Source: Patescibacteria group bacterium (lineage in GTDB: Bacteria; Patescibacteriota; Gracilibacteria; UBA1369; LOWO2-01-FULL-3). Taken from it: 64,000 bases of DNA. The notes under the pieces were generated by a model. It saw nothing but the letters and a program-made list of their open reading frames with translations, was not told the origin of the DNA and searched no databases. Of the stretch, positions 37,085-45,412 are shown piece by piece; position 1 is the first letter of the stretch; every line of letters begins with the position of its first letter. Location: NCBI GenBank assembly GCA_038065735.1, contig JBBTQK010000005.1:363-64362 (forward strand), given 5' to 3'. A program made the position numbers and the translations under genes.

Positions 37085-38773
37085 TTATTTCACCAATTTT
37101 AAATATTCCTCTTCACACAAAATTCTTCCATCAAATTTTGATGGCCAGTTAGTTTTTATTTTTACTCCAGATTTTGAACAAACTGCATCACGTAACTCGC
37201 CATTAAACGGCATCCACGCAAAGTTATCCTGCAAACGATGAACATAATAATCGTGAGGTAGTGGGCCTTTAATTTTTTTTGCAAAATCAATATCTTTTTG
37301 AGTAACTTGAAAAGATCTCTTATATTTTTCATCCCAAAAAATCTGTTCAGCAAGCCACTTTTCTTTTTCAGAACTTAATTCATTGTAAGTATCAGGGATA
37401 GCATCAATTTCAGCAGTTTTCACATTTTTTCTTTCTACGGGTCCCCCTTCCCTAAATCCAAGATCCTTTGGCTTATCAAGAGGAAAATGGAATCCAGAAA
37501 AACTTTCCTCATAAGGGTTTGGAGCAAAGTAACCAGGGAAAAATTCTCCCCATTCAGCCTCCGTCGGCACTCCCTGCTGGTCGCCAGTTTTTTTAAGATG
37601 CTCAATTATTTTTTCACGCAAGATTTCATATTCTTTTTCGGAATATTGCTTATTGAAAATACAATATTTTTTATTTACCAAACCACAGCAGCCAAAACAA
37701 TACTGACAATTTTGAAGATAAGCCGAATATTCGATGAATTTACAGTGGGCAACGCTAAAAGAAAAAATTACATAGTAGGAAAAAACCGGTAGCGAAGTCA
37801 TGAAAGTAAGCTCACCGCCAACTGTTCCCAAGGAATCCAAAGTTACCTTAGCATCAGGTCCGGAAAAACAATCATTCGCAGAATTCTCATGTTTCGAAAG
37901 CAGATAGCAATTTTCACAGTCCTTGCTTTGCTTGATGAAATTACCTGAGGAATCTTCACATTGATCAATCTGCAAAGCTCTATGCCATGCAGTATTTGAC
38001 ATCATTTCACTGAAAAATTCTTTTGCCTTTTCGTAAGTTTTTCTAGATGTAAAATCCCACATAGTCTTTTGTTTCTCAAATTCTTCTTTTGAAAGTTGTT
38101 TATTCCCGAAACAATAGCTTTTGTTGCGAAGATTAAAGCAAAAAAGGCAATTGCTACAATCTCGACAGTCATACATAAAGGCGGAATCACTGACCGTTTT
38201 GCAATTCAACAAAAACAAACTATTAAAGCAATTAGAGGAATTTATCAGATCAAAACATAGTTCCGAATAGAAAGCGGAAACACCATAGTGGACATTTTTA
38301 CAATGATCGCATTCATAACAATAGGAACAATCTTCGCTATACTGGCCTGAATGGCAAAGATAACAATTTTTGCTGTAATACCAGTCATCGGTATATTCAC
38401 AATTTTGATTATTATTTTCAAAAACATGAGGTATTGGACATTTTTGAAACAACTCCCAAGCCTGATCAAAAAATGGCTGTGAAGGATCAAAGTCTCGAGA
38501 TGGGGGATTATTATTTTCAAACCATTCCTTTCTTTTCCAGACAGGATAAACGCAATCCGGACGGAAAACGGATATAATAGGCTCGCCGGTTTTGTCACAT
38601 TTTCTCTTATGTAAATTCCACTGAGGCCAAAATGCTCCAAGATATTGAAAACGATATTTTGGCAAAATCTTAGGCAAGCTATCTCCAAACCCAAATTTTT
38701 CCCTAAGAGTCATTTCATGCTCAGAAATCTCAAAATTTCGCCCAGAAATTTCACATTTAACTTCCATGCTCAA
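37085..38773 (-). CDS. Cys-rich hypothetical protein (562 aa)
   Basis: 31 Cys by hand count, mostly as [ND]-C in a central repeat-like zone (...SKNCYLCHSGQYSEDCSYCYECDHC...DCRDCSNCLFCFN...). C-x-x-[ST]-G motifs sit at both termini. Confidence 0.65.
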   Translation of the reverse strand: MSMEVKCEISGRNFEISEHEMTLREKFGFGDSLPKILPKYRFQYLGAFWPQWNLHKRKCDKTGEPIISVFRPDCVYPVWKRKEWFENNNPPSRDFDPSQPFFDQAWELFQKCPIPHVFENNNQNCEYTDDWYYSKNCYLCHSGQYSEDCSYCYECDHCKNVHYGVSAFYSELCFDLINSSNCFNSLFLLNCKTVSDSAFMYDCRDCSNCLFCFNLRNKSYCFGNKQLSKEEFEKQKTMWDFTSRKTYEKAKEFFSEMMSNTAWHRALQIDQCEDSSGNFIKQSKDCENCYLLSKHENSANDCFSGPDAKVTLDSLGTVGGELTFMTSLPVFSYYVIFSFSVAHCKFIEYSAYLQNCQYCFGCCGLVNKKYCIFNKQYSEKEYEILREKIIEHLKKTGDQQGVPTEAEWGEFFPGYFAPNPYEESFSGFHFPLDKPKDLGFREGGPVERKNVKTAEIDAIPDTYNELSSEKEKWLAEQIFWDEKYKRSFQVTQKDIDFAKKIKGPLPHDYYVHRLQDNFAWMPFNGELRDAVCSKSGVKIKTNWPSKFDGRILCEEEYLKLVK

Positions 38774-38964: not shown

Positions 38965-39780
38965 TCATTCCAGTTTTTTAGTAGTGGGATTTGAAAGAAG
39001 TGATTTCATTTGCATTATTGCAATCTCATTGAGCATAATCAGCCTTTTTTCTTGAGTGAGCCCTTGACGGATAAATTCGGCATTGAGTGACTCCATATTT
39101 GCGAGACAAACCAGCTGTGTAACATCTGCGCAATCGCGCATATTTGCCTTTGTGTCCGGATTCGCATCTCTCCATTCTTTGGATGTCACGCCAAAAAGTG
39201 CCATATTCAATACATCGGCTTCATTGGCATACACAAAATCTTTTTGTTTTTTTGTTATCAGCCTTGGAACAATATGCTCCTTGACAGCGTCGGTATGTAT
39301 TTTATAATTTATTTTAGTCAACATTCGCTTGGCATCCCAACCCAGATTCTTTCTCTCGCCTTCTTCCTCCTTTAATCTTTGGAATTCTTTGATGAGATAT
39401 AGTTTGAATTCCGGAGAAAGCCATGTTGCGAATTCAAAAGCGATATCTTTATGAGCAAAAGTGCCGCCATATCTTCCGGCGCTTGATTTAATACCAATGG
39501 CATTTGTTTTTTTAATCCACATCGACGAAGAAACGATAAAGCCGTTTGTTCCTGCCTCATTTTTAATCTTATGGAATTCAATAAGATTAAAATCAGGATT
39601 GTGTAGCTGTTCCCATGCCCCCATAAATTGAACGGTGTATTTGGTTGTAAGCCAATTTGATATAACCACTCCGCTATCATAGGTCTTATATTTGGCCATA
39701 TCAGTCAATGAAATGTAATCTCCATCATTCTGTGAGTGATATGCTATATTGATATTTTTGACGATTAGATCTTTTTTCAT
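38965..39780 (-). CDS. KilA-N domain protein
   Basis: ...DGDYISLTDMAKYK...WLTTKYTVQFMGAWEQLHNPDFN...GGTFAHKDIAFEFATWLSPEFKLYLIKEFQRLKE is typical of KilA-N. The start is moved to MKKDLIV because the longer ORF's ATG lies inside the promoter palindrome. Confidence 0.8.
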   Translation of the reverse strand: MKKDLIVKNINIAYHSQNDGDYISLTDMAKYKTYDSGVVISNWLTTKYTVQFMGAWEQLHNPDFNLIEFHKIKNEAGTNGFIVSSSMWIKKTNAIGIKSSAGRYGGTFAHKDIAFEFATWLSPEFKLYLIKEFQRLKEEEGERKNLGWDAKRMLTKINYKIHTDAVKEHIVPRLITKKQKDFVYANEADVLNMALFGVTSKEWRDANPDTKANMRDCADVTQLVCLANMESLNAEFIRQGLTQEKRLIMLNEIAIMQMKSLLSNPTTKKLE

Positions 39781-39807
39781 AGAAAGTAAAAAGTTCTTGA
39801 TACCCAC

Positions 39808-39836
39808 ATCGTAGGTGAGCATACGCTCACCGTCAA
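39808..39836 (-). promoter_or_regulatory. sigma70-like promoter TTGACG-N17-TACGAT with GGTGAGC-GTAT-GCTCACC palindrome in the spacer
   Basis: Read on the minus strand, about 28 nt upstream of the ATG at 39780. Same architecture as 28868-28896. Confidence 0.55.
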
Positions 39837-40146: not shown

Positions 40147-41355
40147 ATGGACATTATACTAATAATTATTGCTGCACTACTGTTGGCAGGAGTTGGGTAC
40201 GCAATCTTCCTTATAAGAAATAAGGCAGATAATTCAAGTGAATTAATAGAACTAAAAGAGAATAACGCTAGATTAAACACTGAAAAATCACAGGCTGAGA
40301 ATAAAATAGGAGAACTTCAGGAGAAATTTGAAAATGAAAAAAGTGAAAAAGACCAATCTAATGGCAACAATAAACGAATGTATGTAGAAATTAGTGATTT
40401 GAAAAAAGATTTGCAAGTTAGTCAGGAAAAAGTCAGTGAATTAAAGAAAGAATTAACTACAATTAACACCAAGTCTGAACAAGAAAGAAAAGAGCATAAA
40501 GAAGAAATATCAAAACTAGAAAATGCACGGAAAAGTTTAGAAAAGGAACAAGATAGAGTCACCAATGAAGATGAAGAGAAGAAGGAAAAAGAGAAAAATG
40601 AAAGAGATAGGATATGGAATGAACACGAAGGGGAAGTAAAAAGAAGAATTAGCGATATTTGTAAATCCCCTGAATACGCCTTTCAGTATTATGACAATAC
40701 CAATTTACCGGAAGATTTTGATGGAAAATTGAAACCAGACTGCATGATAGAATTCTTAGGACGATATATTATTTTCGACCCAAAAACTTCTAGATCCGGT
40801 AATTTACAGACATATCTGGATGGACAGATTAAAAGTACTGTAGAAAAAATTAAAGAGTCCACACAAATAAACAAAACAATATTTTTTGTAGTCCCCACAG
40901 ATGCAGTAAGTTCATTAAAAAAACTGCAATATTATGAACAAGGATACACATTCCATATCATATCACCAGAAGCATTAGCACCAATAATATGGAGTTTTAA
41001 GGAGATATCAAAATATGAGTTTGCAGAAAAACTCGATCCACAAGAAAGAGAAAATATAATCAACTTGATCGCTGAATTCGATAACCATATCAATTTCAGA
41101 AATGCTGCAGACATACTACTGGCACAAACTGGAATAAATATCTTGCACAAAGCAAATCAGTTAGTACCAAACCTTGAAGAGGAAATTCAGCAAAAAAGAA
41201 ATAAAATTGGCTTAAGAAATTTGAAGCCAACAGATATAAAAAGATTGATGCTAAATAGAGATACTCAGCAAAGGGACATCGACAATATCGTTAATCCTAA
41301 ATCTGACATACCGAACGAAGTAATAGAAAGGGCCACAGAAATGATGAAGGAATAA
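40147..41355 (+). CDS. RmuC-like DNA recombination/nuclease protein (tentative)
   Basis: 402 aa with an N-terminal TM helix, a long coiled coil, then ...KLKPDCMIEFLGRYIIFDPKTS...TYL...IFFVVPTD.... This parallels the RmuC PD-(D/E)xK core (PD...viDaK...Y...lmFiP). Confidence 0.55.
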   Translation: MDIILIIIAALLLAGVGYAIFLIRNKADNSSELIELKENNARLNTEKSQAENKIGELQEKFENEKSEKDQSNGNNKRMYVEISDLKKDLQVSQEKVSELKKELTTINTKSEQERKEHKEEISKLENARKSLEKEQDRVTNEDEEKKEKEKNERDRIWNEHEGEVKRRISDICKSPEYAFQYYDNTNLPEDFDGKLKPDCMIEFLGRYIIFDPKTSRSGNLQTYLDGQIKSTVEKIKESTQINKTIFFVVPTDAVSSLKKLQYYEQGYTFHIISPEALAPIIWSFKEISKYEFAEKLDPQERENIINLIAEFDNHINFRNAADILLAQTGINILHKANQLVPNLEEEIQQKRNKIGLRNLKPTDIKRLMLNRDTQQRDIDNIVNPKSDIPNEVIERATEMMKE

Positions 41356-41448: not shown

Positions 41449-44400
41449 TCATGAATTTTGTATAATAGATTCAAATATCCAGTGGGTTTTGTCTCTTTTA
41501 CCTAAGCATAATTGACCTACAATGCCATTATCTTTAGTTGAGTACATTAGTCCAATATATCTAGTTTTTATTCCAAGGAACGCTTTAATTTCAACACATA
41601 GAACGTAGTGATGGCCAGATGCTGAACGTTCACTACTTAGTATTTGAGCTTTTTTATAGGCAGTAAGTAAGCAAACTTTTTTGCATACATTTTCTTCTAA
41701 TTCAAAATGAGAACCGCCGACTAAAGTACCATCCAATAATCTCTTCAATATCTTCATATTCCCAGATTCATCAAGATATTTAAAATGGAGTTCAATATTC
41801 AACAATCTACAAACCCTTATGTCATCTGGATGACATTGGAATCCACTCCATACACATACCTTTGACTCGAGTGGTGAACAGAATTTGCCTTCATCAGATT
41901 TGATAGCTTCCTCCTCGAGTATTAGACTCTCAGAAATGCTACTTTTAACAAAAAACTTCTTTAGTGCTCTTTTTTCACTAAAAGTGGAAGTTAGTAATTC
42001 ACTTGGCAATACTTTTTGACTAGTTACTATGCAAGTTTCTAAAATACCAGGTGCAACAATAGCACCAGTTACTTCACAGATTTCTGCTTCCTCAGATATT
42101 AACGGCTTACCTGTTTGCGAACATTTAATAAATTCCGATTTATGCCCAGCTTTACCAGAAACCGATGAAGTTAATTTTTCATCCATACGATAATTTTTCC
42201 CAGATACATCACTCACGCACAACTCAGCTTTTAAAGCTTCTGAATTGCTAAAATCGCATGTACCTATATAAATCGGCTCCGCCCATCTACCACTTACATC
42301 TGACTTTTTCATGACAGAAATAAGCACGCTCTTGCCAGTTACATCCGATTCTTGAACTTCATCCTTTAACACTTTTTTCTGCGTATATGAGCATGTGGCA
42401 AAGTATTCTGGCAATGCCTTGCGGCCACTCTCCTCAGAAGATTGTAATTTATCAGATAATGCAAATTTCCCACTGATCTCGCAGGTGCCCAAGCAAGTTA
42501 GGGGCAGATTCATACCTGTTATTTGACACACTCCCATATCAGGTTGAGCAGAGATCGAACCCCTTGATGGCAATACCCCTAAACTACTTTTATATTCAAC
42601 TCCAGACTCAAGTTCGTAAACACACTCTAGTTCAAGTTCACGGCAAACACTCCCCTCTAAGGCCACCAATGTCGCACTAACCCTAGGTGTAAAATCATCT
42701 TCAAGTTTTTTCCTTTTTCTCTCATCTGAACCAGCTGATTTGATTTCATGTTTTCTACGTTCTTCGTAAAATCTACAAAATTCCGCAACTCCTGGATCCA
42801 ACAGTATTTCTTGTGCTATTTGATTTAAATTTATCCCAGCATCACTTGGATCGTTCAGAAAGTCTCTGTCGAAATGGTCTAAAGAATTTGCAGTTGTAAA
42901 ATGACTGTCAGGACTGCAATCAACTTCAACAAGTCTCTCGTAGCTATCGTGGGCGACAGTAACTTTAACGTATACCAAAGCGGTACCTGCAAAAATATTC
43001 TTAACAGATTTCAACTCAGACAACTTTAAAGTCCCCTTGAAGTCGCTAGTCCAATTTTCGGCAAGATTTTTAGCTATATCCTCTGGTTCCACATCCAAAT
43101 CTTCTAAAATAAACATCCCATCATTAGTCATGCTTTTTACCAGCCTGTCGAAAGCTCCTGCACCTGGCCTATATAGAGTGCTAAATACCGCTCGCTTAGG
43201 GCCTGCAGTATTTAGTTCGACAATCTCAGTTTTTCCATCTTTTTCAAACGTTAGTATGCCATTGTCAGACTCAGTTAAACTCAACCCAAAACTTTCAAAG
43301 CTCTTAATAATAAAAGTCTCCAAATCCATAGATCTTGATATCTCAGGTAGATTTGGAGATTGAGGGCCATTGTACTCTGTTGTTTCTCCCAACAAATGTT
43401 CGATATTCGCTTCCTCTTCCTCTAATTTTTTCTTTGCAGACTCTATACTTTTCTCTTCTCTTTTGGCAGCATCCTCAACATCTATGCCCTTTAACGATGC
43501 CAATACTAATTTTAAGATTTTATCTTCAAACTTTTCTGCCTTTTCATCGCTATTTTCATCAATCCCACTTGCCTCAAGTAATGCCTCTATATCTCCAATA
43601 GCCTGTGAGGCCATTTGTAATTTTTCCATCAACCTATTCACAATATATTCTTCAAATGTTCCTTTCAGAGTCATGTTGAAAATTGATACATTCGCATGTT
43701 TTGATGCCAAACGCTGTACACGACCTATACGTTGCTCAACAATCATAGGATTCCATGGTAGGTCATAATTAACTAAAACATTTGAAGCCTGCAGATTAAC
43801 ACCTTCACTACCAGCTTCAGTTGAAATAATTACATTAATTTCTGGAGGCTCATTCTTGAAACTACTAATAGTTTCAGAATTCTTTGAAGTAGTGTCACCA
43901 TTTATCAAACTGCACTTAATACCTTTTTCTTCTAAAAAAAGCTGTATTGAAGTCTGAGTTTCACGACTACATGTAAAAATGACCATTCTCCAATCCTGGG
44001 GTTTCTCTGATCTTAGTCTTTCAACCAATGCTCCCAGCCCTCCCATCTTGGCGGTAATCGGAATTCGTTTCACTATTTCATCAATACTATCTCTAACTTG
44101 AGCATCAATAGTGCCATTTCTTACCATCGAGTTCATCCAAGACAATAATGCTTCAGGGCTACTAACAGATGCCTTTAATATTCCTATCTGAGCTAAACGA
44201 TTCAGATCCTCGATTGATTCAGAAACTACTTTAAGCAGCTCCAACTCTTCGTTAGTTGGATCGACAATATACCTTTCCACAATACGATCAGGAAACTGCA
44301 AATCAGCATCAGCCCTTCTAATTCGAGACATATAGCTATAAACAATATCTCTAAAATCTTCTTTTGCCTCAGGTTTTAATTTTCGAGCTTGGTCACGACT

Positions 44401-45159
44401 ATCATCAACGAATTTTCTATAAAATAATCCACTGCTACCAAAAGGGTTTTCATGCCCTCTGGCAGTAGACAATAAATCTACAAGAGAATACATGTCCCAA
44501 AGCCTATTCTGGATAGGAGTTGCTGTTAACATAAGTACATACCGAAACATTCGATTCGCCAAAGCTTTTTGAAATTGTATCGCAACTTTAGGTGTTTTAT
44601 CTACGCCGTAAAGATTTCGCAACTTATGGGCTTCATCCAAAATCAACATATCATAGCCATTATCTATAATTTTCTCTAAATGGATACGGGCTGATGTATA
44701 GGTTGTTATTACTGCTCCTTGACCATCTGGAGGTTCGGCAGAAATGAGATCTCCACCAATAGCTATAGTTGATTGAATGCCAAATTTTGATTGCAGCTCC
44801 TCCTGCCATTGCTCCATCAATAATTTAGGACAAACAATCAAAACCTTTTCAATGCGATTTTGCGTCATTAGTTCACTCATCACCAATCCTGCACTGATTG
44901 TTTTACCAAGACCTACATCATCGGCTAGCAAAGTAACCGGCAGTCTTCTGCAAAAAGTTATTAGATTTTTTACTTGATGTTCATATGGCTTAACTTTATC
45001 CTTCCATGCATTTTTAGATTTTAAGTCAGATTCCTTCTCAATAACTATGGGGTCAATTAAACTCCATTCTAAAGCCGCCTTATATAAATAAAACTTCGAT
45101 TTATCCGTATTACGCTTTAGCGGCTTTATTTTGATTTTTGACTCAAATTCATTCACCAA
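41449..45159 (-). CDS. SNF2-family helicase (1236 aa) with a long C-terminal extension containing a 15-residue repeat array
   Basis: Motifs LADDVGLGKTI (I), DEAHKLRN (II), LLTATPIQN (III) and QRIGRVQRLASK (VI) in the first ~520 aa. The C-terminal ~700 aa are unassigned. Confidence 0.85.
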   Translation of the reverse strand: MVNEFESKIKIKPLKRNTDKSKFYLYKAALEWSLIDPIVIEKESDLKSKNAWKDKVKPYEHQVKNLITFCRRLPVTLLADDVGLGKTISAGLVMSELMTQNRIEKVLIVCPKLLMEQWQEELQSKFGIQSTIAIGGDLISAEPPDGQGAVITTYTSARIHLEKIIDNGYDMLILDEAHKLRNLYGVDKTPKVAIQFQKALANRMFRYVLMLTATPIQNRLWDMYSLVDLLSTARGHENPFGSSGLFYRKFVDDSRDQARKLKPEAKEDFRDIVYSYMSRIRRADADLQFPDRIVERYIVDPTNEELELLKVVSESIEDLNRLAQIGILKASVSSPEALLSWMNSMVRNGTIDAQVRDSIDEIVKRIPITAKMGGLGALVERLRSEKPQDWRMVIFTCSRETQTSIQLFLEEKGIKCSLINGDTTSKNSETISSFKNEPPEINVIISTEAGSEGVNLQASNVLVNYDLPWNPMIVEQRIGRVQRLASKHANVSIFNMTLKGTFEEYIVNRLMEKLQMASQAIGDIEALLEASGIDENSDEKAEKFEDKILKLVLASLKGIDVEDAAKREEKSIESAKKKLEEEEANIEHLLGETTEYNGPQSPNLPEISRSMDLETFIIKSFESFGLSLTESDNGILTFEKDGKTEIVELNTAGPKRAVFSTLYRPGAGAFDRLVKSMTNDGMFILEDLDVEPEDIAKNLAENWTSDFKGTLKLSELKSVKNIFAGTALVYVKVTVAHDSYERLVEVDCSPDSHFTTANSLDHFDRDFLNDPSDAGINLNQIAQEILLDPGVAEFCRFYEERRKHEIKSAGSDERKRKKLEDDFTPRVSATLVALEGSVCRELELECVYELESGVEYKSSLGVLPSRGSISAQPDMGVCQITGMNLPLTCLGTCEISGKFALSDKLQSSEESGRKALPEYFATCSYTQKKVLKDEVQESDVTGKSVLISVMKKSDVSGRWAEPIYIGTCDFSNSEALKAELCVSDVSGKNYRMDEKLTSSVSGKAGHKSEFIKCSQTGKPLISEEAEICEVTGAIVAPGILETCIVTSQKVLPSELLTSTFSEKRALKKFFVKSSISESLILEEEAIKSDEGKFCSPLESKVCVWSGFQCHPDDIRVCRLLNIELHFKYLDESGNMKILKRLLDGTLVGGSHFELEENVCKKVCLLTAYKKAQILSSERSASGHHYVLCVEIKAFLGIKTRYIGLMYSTKDNGIVGQLCLGKRDKTHWIFESIIQNS
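41812..42528 (-). repeat. coding tandem repeat: about 16 units of 15 aa (45 nt), consensus [CS]-x-[VI]-[ST]-G-[KR]-x-x-L-x6
   Basis: aa 878-1116 of the SNF2 protein: CQITGMNLPLTCLGT / CEISGKFALSDKLQS / SEESGRKALPEYFAT / ... / CVWSGFQCHPDDIRV. Strict 15-aa register, with one 14-aa unit. Confidence 0.8.
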
Positions 45160-45338: not shown

Positions 45339-45412
45339 TGGCTGGGGATGAGGGATTCGAACCCCCGATGTCGCCTCCAGAGGGCGATGCCTTACCGCTT
45401 GGCGAATCCCCA
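45339..45412 (-). tRNA. tRNA-Gln (anticodon CTG), CCA encoded
   Basis: Hand-folded: acceptor TGGGGAT/ATCCCCA, D region TCGCCAAGCGGTAAGGCA as in E. coli tRNA-Gln, anticodon arm TCGCC-CTCTGGA-GGCGA, T loop TTCGAAT, then G plus CCA. 74 nt. Confidence 0.9.

What the first reader, a model, noticed from the sequence alone, without database searches (positions are those of the whole stretch)
41812..42528. SNF2 helicase tail built from ~16 strictly phased 15-residue repeats ([CS]-x-[VI]-[ST]-G-[KR]...)
- Amino acids 878-1116 of the 1236-aa SNF2 protein parse into consecutive 15-aa units with no spacer. One unit is 14 aa.
- The units in order: CQITGMNLPLTCLGT, CEISGKFALSDKLQS, SEESGRKALPEYFAT, CSYTQKKVLKDEVQE, SDVTGKSVLISVMKK, SDVSGRWAEPIYIGT, CDFSNSEALKAELCV, SDVSGKNYRMDEKLT, SSVSGKAGHKSEFIK, CSQTGKPLISEEAEI, CEVTGAIVAPGILET, CIVTSQKVLPSELLT, STFSEKRALKKFFVK, SSISESLILEEEAIK, SDEGKFCSPLESKV, CVWSGFQCHPDDIRV.
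- Position 1 alternates Cys and Ser, positions 4-6 are usually [ST]-G-[KR], and position 9 is often Leu.
- The repeats are conserved at the protein level but not the DNA level, so this is an old, selected solenoid-like array rather than a recent duplication.
- I cannot assign the repeat to a named domain. A repeat array fused to a chromatin-remodeller-type ATPase next to a tRNA gene is a plausible sensor or binding module of an anti-mobile-element or DNA-transaction system.
Basis: seen in the sequence. Interest (0 to 1): 0.6.

Follow-up and report, generated by a model that had tools for sequence, protein, structure and literature searches.

The report
Beta-hairpin repeat stalk on SNF2 helicase
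The tail of this 1236-residue SNF2 motor protein really is an old, strongly conserved array of 16-17 fifteen-residue beta-hairpin units that matches no described domain, grows to about 72 units in relatives, and sits on a rarely carried accessory gene often paired with Cas4-like nucleases, so its role (probably action on foreign DNA) is still inferred.

Summary
Residues 878-1116 of the SNF2 protein (window 41812-42528, minus strand) have a strict 15-residue period (lag-15 z = 11.1). Position 1 is only Cys or Ser and position 4 only Ser or Thr. There is no DNA-level repeat.

AlphaFold2 models each unit with high confidence (pLDDT 91) as strand, six-residue [CS]xx[ST]G[KR] loop, strand and a one-turn helix.

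Pfam, NCBIfam, PHROGs, PADLOC and PDB sequence searches find nothing in the tail. Foldseek finds no significant PDB match. The weak top hits are tandem zinc-finger hairpin arrays such as LIM domains. The units lack the second ligand, so they are essentially metal-free.

The family has at least 354 clusters at 50% identity across many phyla. Arrays run from 16 to 24, 34, 46, 59 and 72 units by block duplication.

The gene is accessory. It is absent from 60 of 60 relatives and present in 5 of 151 Bradyrhizobium species. About a third of loci carry an adjacent Cas4-like/RNase H-like nuclease gene, but this genome has none.

Best reading: a conserved, length-variable stalk or docking surface on a DNA translocase of an uncharacterised defence or DNA-transaction system. 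Function is untested.

The parts
41449..45159 (-). SNF2-family ATPase gene, 1236 aa, TTG start. It is a single-copy accessory gene.
   Evidence: ORF and translation. More than 648 full-length homologues. Absent from 60 of 60 relatives.
44215..44934 (-). ATPase lobe 1 (SNF2-related domain, aa 76-315), with motif I DDVGLGKT and motif II DEAHKLRN.
   Evidence: Pfam PF00176, 94.6 bits against a cut-off of 24.9. The motifs can be read in the translation.
43708..44016 (-). ATPase lobe 2 (Helicase_C, aa 382-484), with motif VI QRIGRVQR just after it.
   Evidence: Pfam PF00271, 70.8 bits against a cut-off of 23.5. Translation.
42529..43302 (-). Unassigned middle region (aa 620-877). It holds alpha/beta domains, a helical segment and long beta-hairpins, with the conserved motifs TVAHDSYERL and KKLEDDFTPR.
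   Evidence: AlphaFold2 secondary structure. Invariant columns. No family match.
41812..42528 (-). The finding: 16 in-phase beta-hairpin units (aa 878-1116). Fifteen are 15 residues long and one is 14.
   Evidence: Periodicity z = 11.1. Position statistics. AlphaFold2 pattern EEE------EEEHHH with pLDDT above 90.
41770..41811 (-). A 17th, degenerate hairpin unit (aa 1117-1130, CRLLNIELHFKYLD). Its first Cys is invariant.
   Evidence: AlphaFold2 strands continue through it. C257 is invariant in alignment A2.
41452..41769 (-). C-terminal globular alpha+beta 'head' (aa 1131-1236): helices followed by a five-stranded sheet.
   Evidence: AlphaFold2. Invariant G, R and W columns near the C-terminus. 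No family match.
45339..45412 (-). tRNA-Gln(CTG), 180 nt upstream on the same strand. This is context only.
   Evidence: ARAGORN. No duplicated 3' end elsewhere in the window.

Best explanation
**What it is**
- The gene encodes an intact SNF2-type, ATP-driven double-stranded-DNA translocase.
- Its tail is an undescribed module: two alpha/beta domains, then an elongated array of 16-17 beta-hairpin units, then a small globular head.
- Each 15-residue unit is strand, six-residue knuckle-type loop ([CS]-x-[VIL]-[ST]-G-[KR]), strand and a one-turn helix.
- Four apolar positions per unit (3, 8, 9 and 13) would give a continuous core.
- The loop resembles a zinc knuckle (CxxCG) that has lost its second ligand, so the array is essentially metal-free.

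**How it varies**
- The array changes length by duplication of blocks of units, from 16 up to about 72 units in relatives.
- Each unit keeps its own conserved surface residues across phyla.

**What I infer it does**
- I infer that the array is a stiff stalk and docking surface. It would hold the C-terminal head, or a partner protein, at a set distance from the motor.
- I infer that the protein belongs to a horizontally spread accessory system that acts on foreign or damaged DNA. In about a third of genomes it would work with an adjacent Cas4-like PD-(D/E)xK plus RNase H-like 3'-5' exonuclease.
- In this Peribacteria genome the helicase stands alone.

**Shown versus inferred**
- Shown: the repeat, its conservation, the predicted hairpin secondary structure, the absence of known-domain matches, the length variation, the patchy distribution, and the nuclease association.
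- Inferred: stiffness, stalk or docking role, absence of metal, and defence function.
For: **Repeat and structure**
- Periodicity and motif statistics.
- AlphaFold2: pLDDT 87.7 for the whole tail and 91.3 (pTM 0.63) for the array alone, with the same EEE------EEEHHH pattern in every unit.
- No match in Pfam, NCBIfam, PHROGs or PDB sequences.
- No Foldseek PDB hit at E <= 1e-3. The weak top hits are tandem LIM, CHY, PHD and IBR zinc-finger hairpin arrays.
- 26 BFVD hits at E <= 1e-3, mostly uncharacterised phage and giant-virus proteins, including one named as a LIM-domain protein.
- Position 4 is never Cys.

**Length variation**
- 354 representatives, 1167-2098 aa long.
- Arrays of 24, 34, 46, 59 and 72 units, almost all at steps of exactly 15 residues.
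- An 8-unit block duplication gives 0.44 identity at offset 120.

**Selection**
- The array is more conserved than its flanks (0.69 against 0.57 and 0.53).
- Non-core positions have 0.48-0.77 identity.

**Motor and distribution**
- ATPase motifs are intact.
- Present in 0 of 60 relatives and in 5 of 151 Bradyrhizobium species.

**Neighbours**
- Within two genes in 47 loci: DUF2779 in 9, RNase_H_2/PDDEXK_1 in 6, DUF2130 in 3, OLD in 3, serine recombinase in 3, integrase in 3, AbiEii in 2, SbcCD in 2.
- The nuclease genes are co-oriented, with gaps of 1-11 nt in several loci.
- DUF2779 and COG2251 are described as a Cas4-like nuclease joined to a predicted 3'-5' exonuclease (PMC3985635, PMC13621843). 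DUF2130 is listed as a PD-(D/E)xK family (PMC3424549).
Against: - No experiment or expression data were available.
- I had no model coordinates. Rod shape, rise per unit and Cys-Cys distances are unmeasured, and pTM is only 0.53-0.63.
- Two thirds of loci, including this one, have no adjacent nuclease. This genome has no DUF2779 or RNase_H_2 gene at all.
- The family does not match any PADLOC system beyond the shared helicase core.
- It was not found in the phage or plasmid collections.
- About ten Cys are invariant and unit-specific, and the reason is unexplained. A terminal metal site (C1094, C1102, C1109/H1110, C1117) cannot be excluded.
- High surface conservation fits a binding surface but does not say what binds.
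Confidence: 0.5

Rival explanations
1. This is a DNA-repair or recombination accessory factor rather than immunity. The SNF2 motor would clear or remodel DNA ends for a Cas4-like/RNase H-like exonuclease, as Fun30 helps end resection in eukaryotes (from my own knowledge). The hairpin array would be a scaffold for that partner.
For: - The partners are RecB/Cas4-like nucleases, some fused to SF1 helicases.
- SbcCD lies next to the gene in three loci.
- The Cas4 phylogenomics paper considers repair roles for solo Cas4-like nucleases (PMC5704561).
Against: - Repair factors are usually inherited vertically. This gene is in 0 of 60 relatives and in 3% of Bradyrhizobium species.
- Its neighbours include OLD, AbiEii, toxin-antitoxin genes, restriction-modification genes, recombinases and a Bil-type ubiquitin-like system.
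Confidence: 0.2
2. The array is a nucleic-acid-binding track. The conserved Lys/Arg of the successive knuckle loops would follow the phosphate backbone, so the tail would hold or measure DNA while the motor pumps it.
For: - Position 6 is K or R in 68% of units and at least 80% conserved in 7 of 14 units.
- The regular spacing and the fusion to a DNA translocase fit this reading.
Against: - The array is nearly neutral, even slightly acidic (29 K+R against 34 D+E).
- Glu at position 12 is conserved about as often as Lys at position 6. That fits salt bridges between units better than a basic DNA-binding face.
- No nucleic-acid-binding fold was matched.
Confidence: 0.12
3. The array is a true poly-zinc-finger, like tandem LIM or zinc-ribbon domains. 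Its invariant cysteines from neighbouring units would combine into metal sites.
For: - The best, though non-significant, Foldseek PDB hits are zinc-finger hairpin arrays.
- Cys at position 1 is invariant in 9-10 units.
- One relative, P0184, has real CxxC clusters next to and inside its array, with Cys at position 1 in most units.
Against: - Position 4 is Ser or Thr in all 745 units, never Cys or His. Seven of the 16 units in this protein have Ser at position 1 as well.
- That leaves at most one thiol per hairpin, and none in the runs of Ser-only units.
Confidence: 0.08
4. This is a housekeeping transcription factor of the RapA type, which recycles RNA polymerase, carrying a lineage-specific tail.
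For: RapA is the best PDB sequence match after the Sulfolobus SNF2 core. The NCBIfam RapA model gives 138.6 bits.
Against: - The RapA score is far below the cut-off of 576, and only the ATPase core aligns.
- The gene is absent from all 60 relatives searched.
Confidence: 0.04

Closest known systems
Defence-island SNF2 helicases: DISARM DrmD, BREX BrxHI, Hma HmaA, Zorya ZorD, Dpd DpdE
   Same: - The Swi2/Snf2 ATPase core is shared, and these are the best PADLOC and NCBIfam hits.
- The gene has an accessory, patchy distribution and is paired with nucleases. HmaA and ZorD carry a fused nuclease (PMC11232893 and the PADLOC descriptions).
   Different: - All scores are far below the family cut-offs and cover only the core: DrmD 213 against 610, DpdE 175 against 500, ZorD 75 against 1500.
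- None of the partner genes of those systems lies next to this gene.
- None of those families is reported with a 15-residue hairpin array.
- Here the nuclease, when present, is a separate DUF2779/COG2251 protein.
Tandem LIM domains and other zinc-knuckle or zinc-ribbon hairpin arrays (for example LMO2:LDB1, 2xjy)
   Same: - Both are successive short beta-hairpins of about 13-15 residues with a knuckle loop C-x-x-[C/S/T]-G, forming an extended array.
- These are the best-ranked Foldseek PDB hits, and there is a BFVD hit named as a LIM-domain protein.
   Different: - The hits are not significant (E >= 0.07, TM <= 0.3).
- The second ligand position is never Cys or His, so the metal sites that define those domains cannot form.
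- 16 to 72 uninterrupted units is far beyond the 2-5 LIM domains of known proteins (from my own knowledge).
Adenovirus fibre shaft (triple beta-spiral, 15-residue pseudo-repeat) and choline-binding beta-hairpin solenoids (C-LytA)
   Same: - All are elongated rods built from short beta-hairpin repeats, with length set by repeat number.
- The adenovirus shaft shares the 15-residue period (from my own knowledge).
- Fibre shafts appear among the BFVD hits at E about 1e-4.
   Different: - Foldseek probability is only 0.2-0.4 for the fibres and 0.02 for C-LytA.
- There is no sequence-motif similarity and no Pfam CW_binding hit.
- The fibre shaft is an obligate trimer and extracellular or viral, whereas this array is cytoplasmic and modelled confidently as a monomer.

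Membership tests
Swi2/Snf2 family ATPases | SNF2-related N-lobe and Helicase_C lobe both above the curated cut-offs | tested here: met
   PF00176 94.6 bits (cut-off 24.9) and PF00271 70.8 bits (cut-off 23.5). The best PDB hit is the Sulfolobus SNF2/Rad54 core 1z63, at 1.3e-28.
Swi2/Snf2 family ATPases | Intact Walker A (GxGKT), DExH box and motif VI arginines | tested here: met
   DDVGLGKT, DEAHKLRN and QRIGRVQR can be read in the translation. They are nearly invariant in the alignments.
DISARM DrmD | Score above the NCBIfam equivalog cut-off, and drmA/B/C or methylase neighbours | tested here: not met
   NF038317 213 bits against 610, and NF038318 182 bits against 950. Window neighbours have no DISARM hits in PADLOC.
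Hma HmaA | Snf2 helicase with a C-terminal PD-(D/E)xK nuclease domain (PMC11232893) | tested here: not met
   The PADLOC HmaA hit (156.8 bits) covers only model positions 510-647 of the helicase. No nuclease family matches the tail.
RapA | Score above the NCBIfam cut-off | tested here: not met
   NF003426 138.6 bits against 576.
Zinc ribbon / zinc knuckle / LIM arrays | Two Cys/His ligands per knuckle (CxxC), giving four ligands per finger | tested here: not met
   Position 4 is S (60%) or T (40%) in 745 units. Position 1 is S in 45% of units.
Zinc ribbon / zinc knuckle / LIM arrays | Significant structural similarity of the hairpin array | tested here: inconclusive
   LIM, CHY, PHD and IBR entries dominate the top of the Foldseek PDB list, but at E 0.07-2 and TM 0.1-0.3.
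Zinc ribbon / zinc knuckle / LIM arrays | Bound zinc | not testable with these tools
   This needs metal analysis of purified protein.
Choline-binding / cell-wall-binding hairpin solenoid | CW_binding repeat signature and fold match | tested here: not met
   No Pfam hit. C-LytA 1gvm is at rank 36 with probability 0.02.
Adenovirus-type triple beta-spiral | 15-residue repeat forming a trimeric shaft | tested here: inconclusive
   The period matches. Fibre hits have E about 1e-4 but probability 0.2-0.4 and TM about 0.1. Oligomeric state was not tested.

The most novel reading that the evidence does not exclude
The array is a new class of protein repeat: a metal-free descendant of zinc-knuckle hairpins that builds a stiff stalk. 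Block duplication tunes its length from 16 to about 72 units. By my rough estimate that is from about ten to several tens of nanometres, but I could not measure it. The stalk would act as a molecular ruler or reach-arm, setting the distance between a DNA-pumping SNF2 motor and a sensing or recruiting head. Together they would form a previously unrecognised anti-mobile-element system whose effector is a Cas4-like/RNase H-like nuclease.
Probability: 0.25. Interest if true: 0.8.

Novelty: new variant of a known kind. Interest (0 to 1): 0.58.

Why it matters
- Bacterial SNF2 motors keep turning up as cores of immune systems (DISARM, BREX, Zorya, Hma, Dpd). This is a large, phylum-spanning SNF2 family with no name, no model in the domain or defence libraries searched, and no paper found.
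- Its most conserved part is a repeat that no library recognises.
- A hairpin array whose length changes four-fold between relatives, while each unit keeps its own surface, is rare. It gives a direct handle for experiments, such as swapping 16-, 24- and 72-unit arrays.
- The recurrent pairing with DUF2779/COG2251 gives a first functional context for those widespread but uncharacterised Cas4-like exonucleases.
- Cultured carriers exist (Bradyrhizobium, Rhodopseudomonas pseudopalustris DSM 123, Arenimonas donghaensis DSM 18148), so the questions can be tested.

Tried and rejected
1. **Named domains.** Pfam, NCBIfam, PHROGs, PADLOC and PDB sequences find nothing in aa 620-1236.
2. **Fold matches.** Foldseek against the PDB gives no hit at E <= 1e-3, either with the whole tail or with the array alone.
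3. **Stand-alone repeat proteins.** A search restricted to proteins of 131-418 aa found only 14 hits, most on contigs under 7 kb, which look like fragments of the same gene.
4. **Plasmid or phage carriage.** No tblastn hit in either collection.
5. **tRNA-Gln island boundary.** There is no second copy of the tRNA 3' end in the window.
6. **Nuclease partner elsewhere in this genome.** None was found for DUF2779, RNase_H_2, DUF2130 or OLD. The DUF2779 search had no positive control, but tblastn with real partner proteins was also empty.
7. **The convergent 402-aa neighbour as a DUF2130/RmuC-type nuclease.** hhalign probability is 0.3, there is no Pfam hit, and only coiled-coil-type hits fall on its N-terminus.
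8. **Shared module with the Cys-rich 562-aa neighbour.** Only one unit-like stretch scores 9.9 bits, below every true unit. The other proposed stretches score negative.
9. **Promoter and terminator scan around the gene.** The counts equal those of shuffled sequence.
11. **Three-dimensional geometry.** Model coordinates are not exposed, so rise per unit and Cys distances could not be measured.
Full report
**1. The observation**

The ORF at 41449-45159 on the minus strand encodes a 1236-residue protein. Residues 878-1116 correspond exactly to window 41812-42528.

The periodicity is far beyond chance.
- BLOSUM62 autocorrelation against 500 shuffles gives z = 11.1 at lag 15 and z of about 7 at lags 30, 45 and 60. 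Nothing exceeds z = 2 at any other lag up to 60.
- A position-specific matrix built from homologous units was run over every six-frame ORF of at least 100 aa in the 1.41-Mb genome. Of the 16 positions that score 14 bits or more, 15 are these units.

The repeat is not visible in the DNA.
- Tandem Repeats Finder finds nothing in the region.
- Units share 39% DNA identity on average, against 28% for random in-frame 45-mers of the same gene.

One correction is needed. Position 1 does not alternate between Cys and Ser. Each unit has its own fixed residue (C C S C S S C S S C C C S S S C, then C1117). Apart from unit 13, it is invariant across 51 homologues from several phyla.

**2. What the unit is**

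Statistics over 745 distinct units:

| Position | Residues |
|---|---|
| 1 | only C or S |
| 4 | only S or T |
| 5 | G, 69% |
| 6 | K or R, 68% |
| 3, 8, 9, 13 | apolar |

AlphaFold2 was run on the tail (aa 620-1236, 25 sequences, mean pLDDT 87.7) and on the array alone (aa 861-1130, 51 sequences, pLDDT 91.3, pTM 0.63).
- Both give the same pattern in every unit: EEE------EEEHHH.
- Mapped onto the sequence, the six-residue loop is the [CS]xx[ST]G[KR] motif. The strands are positions 7-9 and 13-15. Positions 10-12 form a one-turn helix.
- The hairpin pattern continues into a 17th unit (aa 1117-1130).
- Before the array lie alpha/beta domains and long hairpins. After it comes a small alpha+beta head.

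**3. Comparison with known domains**

- Pfam, NCBIfam, PADLOC and PHROGs recognise only the SNF2 ATPase core. Nothing matches aa 620-1236.
- PDB sequences give no hit for the tail.
- Foldseek against the PDB gives no match at E <= 1e-3 for either model.
- The non-significant top of the list for the array is dominated by tandem zinc-finger hairpin arrays: LIM domains of LMO2, CRP1, PINCH, Isl1 and LMO4, and CHY, PHD/PZP and IBR fingers. C-LytA appears at rank 36.
- Against predicted viral structures there are 26 hits at E <= 1e-3. Most are uncharacterised phage or giant-virus proteins, and one is named as a LIM-domain protein. Adenovirus fibre shafts appear at low probability.

The loop looks like a zinc knuckle (CxxCG) whose second ligand has become Ser or Thr. 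That position is never Cys or His, and nearly half of the units also have Ser at position 1, so regular zinc sites cannot form.

A terminal site made of C1094, C1102, C1109/H1110 and C1117 cannot be excluded. One relative (P0184) has genuine CxxC clusters next to its array. That fits a zinc-knuckle ancestry but does not prove it.

**4. The family**

- A search restricted to the tail found more than 648 full-length homologues at about 44% identity. They come from Patescibacteria, Nitrospirota, Elusimicrobiota, Acidobacteriota and Alpha-, Beta- and Gammaproteobacteria.
- An exhaustive search with the 239-residue array found 354 cluster representatives at E <= 1e-3. Their lengths run from 1167 to 2098 aa, with up to 12 separate matches per protein.
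- Chaining units with the matrix gives arrays of 24, 34, 46, 59 and 72 units. Almost every step is exactly 15 residues.
- The 1350-aa forms carry a duplication of an eight-unit block, with 0.44 identity at offset 120. The long forms, which include Planctomycetota genes, show a three-unit C-S-S super-repeat, with identity peaks at multiples of 45.
- No stand-alone repeat proteins were found apart from apparent gene fragments.
- The array is the most conserved part of the tail, with mean column identity 0.69 against 0.57 and 0.53 for its flanks. Non-core positions have 0.48-0.77 identity. A passive linker would not be expected to be conserved like this.
- The array is nearly neutral in charge (29 K+R, 34 D+E). 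Lys at position 6 and Glu at position 12 are conserved about equally often. I read that as salt bridges between units rather than a basic DNA-binding face. This is an inference.

**5. Genomic context**

The gene is accessory.
- None of 60 genomes of the same family or order carries it.
- Only 5 of 151 Bradyrhizobium species do.
- It was not found in the plasmid or phage collections.

Neighbourhoods are variable across 55 loci. One theme recurs. A gene of about 500 aa is co-oriented and often separated from the helicase gene by only 1-11 nt. It encodes a Cas4-like PD-(D/E)xK domain plus an RNase H-like domain.
- DUF2779 occurs in 9-10 loci.
- PDDEXK_1 plus RNase_H_2 (COG2251 type) occurs in 5-6 loci.
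- In three or more loci the same protein is fused to an SF1 helicase.

Other neighbours within two genes are DUF2130 (a PD-(D/E)xK family, PMC3424549), OLD nucleases, serine recombinases, integrases, AbiEii and SbcCD. Individual loci also show an Eco57I-type restriction-modification gene, ParE/PhD, and a ubiquitin-like E1/E2 system.

DUF2779 and COG2251 are predicted 3'-5' exonucleases joined to Cas4-like nucleases, and they are uncharacterised (PMC3985635, PMC13621843).

In the window itself the helicase is solo.
- The genome has no DUF2779, RNase_H_2, DUF2130 or OLD gene.
- The convergent 402-aa neighbour shows no similarity to DUF2130.
- The KilA-N gene at 38965-39822 matches the PADLOC candidate PDC-S22 at 3.8e-126.
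- tRNA-Gln lies 180 nt upstream, but no copy of its 3' end marks an island boundary.

**6. Mechanism**

The following are shown:
- an intact SNF2 motor;
- a conserved array predicted with high confidence as beta-hairpins;
- variation of array length by block duplication;
- accessory distribution;
- recurrent pairing with a nuclease.

The following are inferred:
- The array is a stiff stalk and docking surface between the motor and a C-terminal head.
- The system acts on foreign or damaged DNA, with the Cas4-like exonuclease as effector where it is present.

I give this combined reading about 0.5. The rivals are a repair accessory factor (0.2), a nucleic-acid track (0.12), a true poly-zinc finger (0.08) and a RapA-like housekeeping factor (0.04).

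**7. Membership and novelty**

- The protein is a member of the Swi2/Snf2 ATPases.
- By curated cut-offs it is not DrmD, DpdE, ZorD, RapA or HmaA.
- The array fails the defining ligand test for zinc fingers.
- Its similarity to LIM arrays, choline-binding solenoids and the adenovirus triple beta-spiral is only weak or inconclusive.
- Full-text searches for the partner families together with SNF2, and for a 15-residue hairpin repeat in helicases, found no description of this family.
I reproduced its main claims independently here, but it is not independent evidence.

I class the finding as a new variant of a known kind: an accessory SNF2 helicase with an undescribed repeat module.

**8. Limits**

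- No coordinates of the models were available.
- ORFs in the related loci were called with a simple longest-ORF rule.
- Enrichment of defence genes near the family was not tested against a background.

Noticed in passing
window 38965-39822 (-): The KilA-N protein (285 aa) matches the PADLOC single-gene defence candidate PDC-S22 almost end to end (E 3.8e-126). A KilA-N gene also precedes the DUF2130 and SNF2 genes in the Blackburnbacteria locus L003.
   Followed up: partly
window 37085-38773 (-): The Cys-rich 562-aa protein was said to share the C-x-x-[ST]-G module with the SNF2 tail. With the unit matrix, only CEISGRNFEISEHEM (aa 7-21) scores 9.9 bits, below every true unit. The other proposed stretches score negative. 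It has no Pfam or PADLOC match.
   Followed up: yes
window 40147-41355 (+): The convergent 402-aa protein (N-terminal membrane helix plus coiled coil) has no Pfam hit and no profile similarity to DUF2130. Only weak hits fall on its N-terminus (RTasRmuC model 1e-6, Rz-like spanin). The 'RmuC-like nuclease' label remains unverified.
   Followed up: partly
genome contig C12, 9185-9229 (-): This is the only other place in the genome with a unit-like 15-mer (CEITQKIGIKDILIT, 22.2 bits). It is a single copy inside a 350-aa ORF that has an N-terminal membrane helix, and it is probably a chance match.
   Followed up: no
protein P0184 (1443 aa): This relative has a different front end. It starts inside the helicase C-lobe, so it may be truncated. 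It has dense CxxC/CPDH clusters before and inside a 43-unit array, and position 1 is Cys in most units. It may be a zinc-retaining form of the repeat.
   Followed up: no
locus L001 1-12062 (Hyphomicrobium sp.): Here the SNF2 gene follows a 1155-aa fusion of Cas4-like nuclease, RNase_H_2 and SF1 helicase. Just upstream lie a Peptidase_M78 gene and a ThiF / Multi_ubiq / Prok-E2_E ubiquitin-like conjugation cluster. The setting looks like a defence island.
   Followed up: no
loci L020 and L038 (Nitrospira), L014, L015, L054: In Nitrospira, an OLD-family ATPase-TOPRIM nuclease with SbcC and SbcD lies next to the SNF2 gene. In L014 and L054 the OLD gene is paired with DUF2130 instead. This is a second recurrent neighbourhood besides the Cas4-like partner.
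   Followed up: partly
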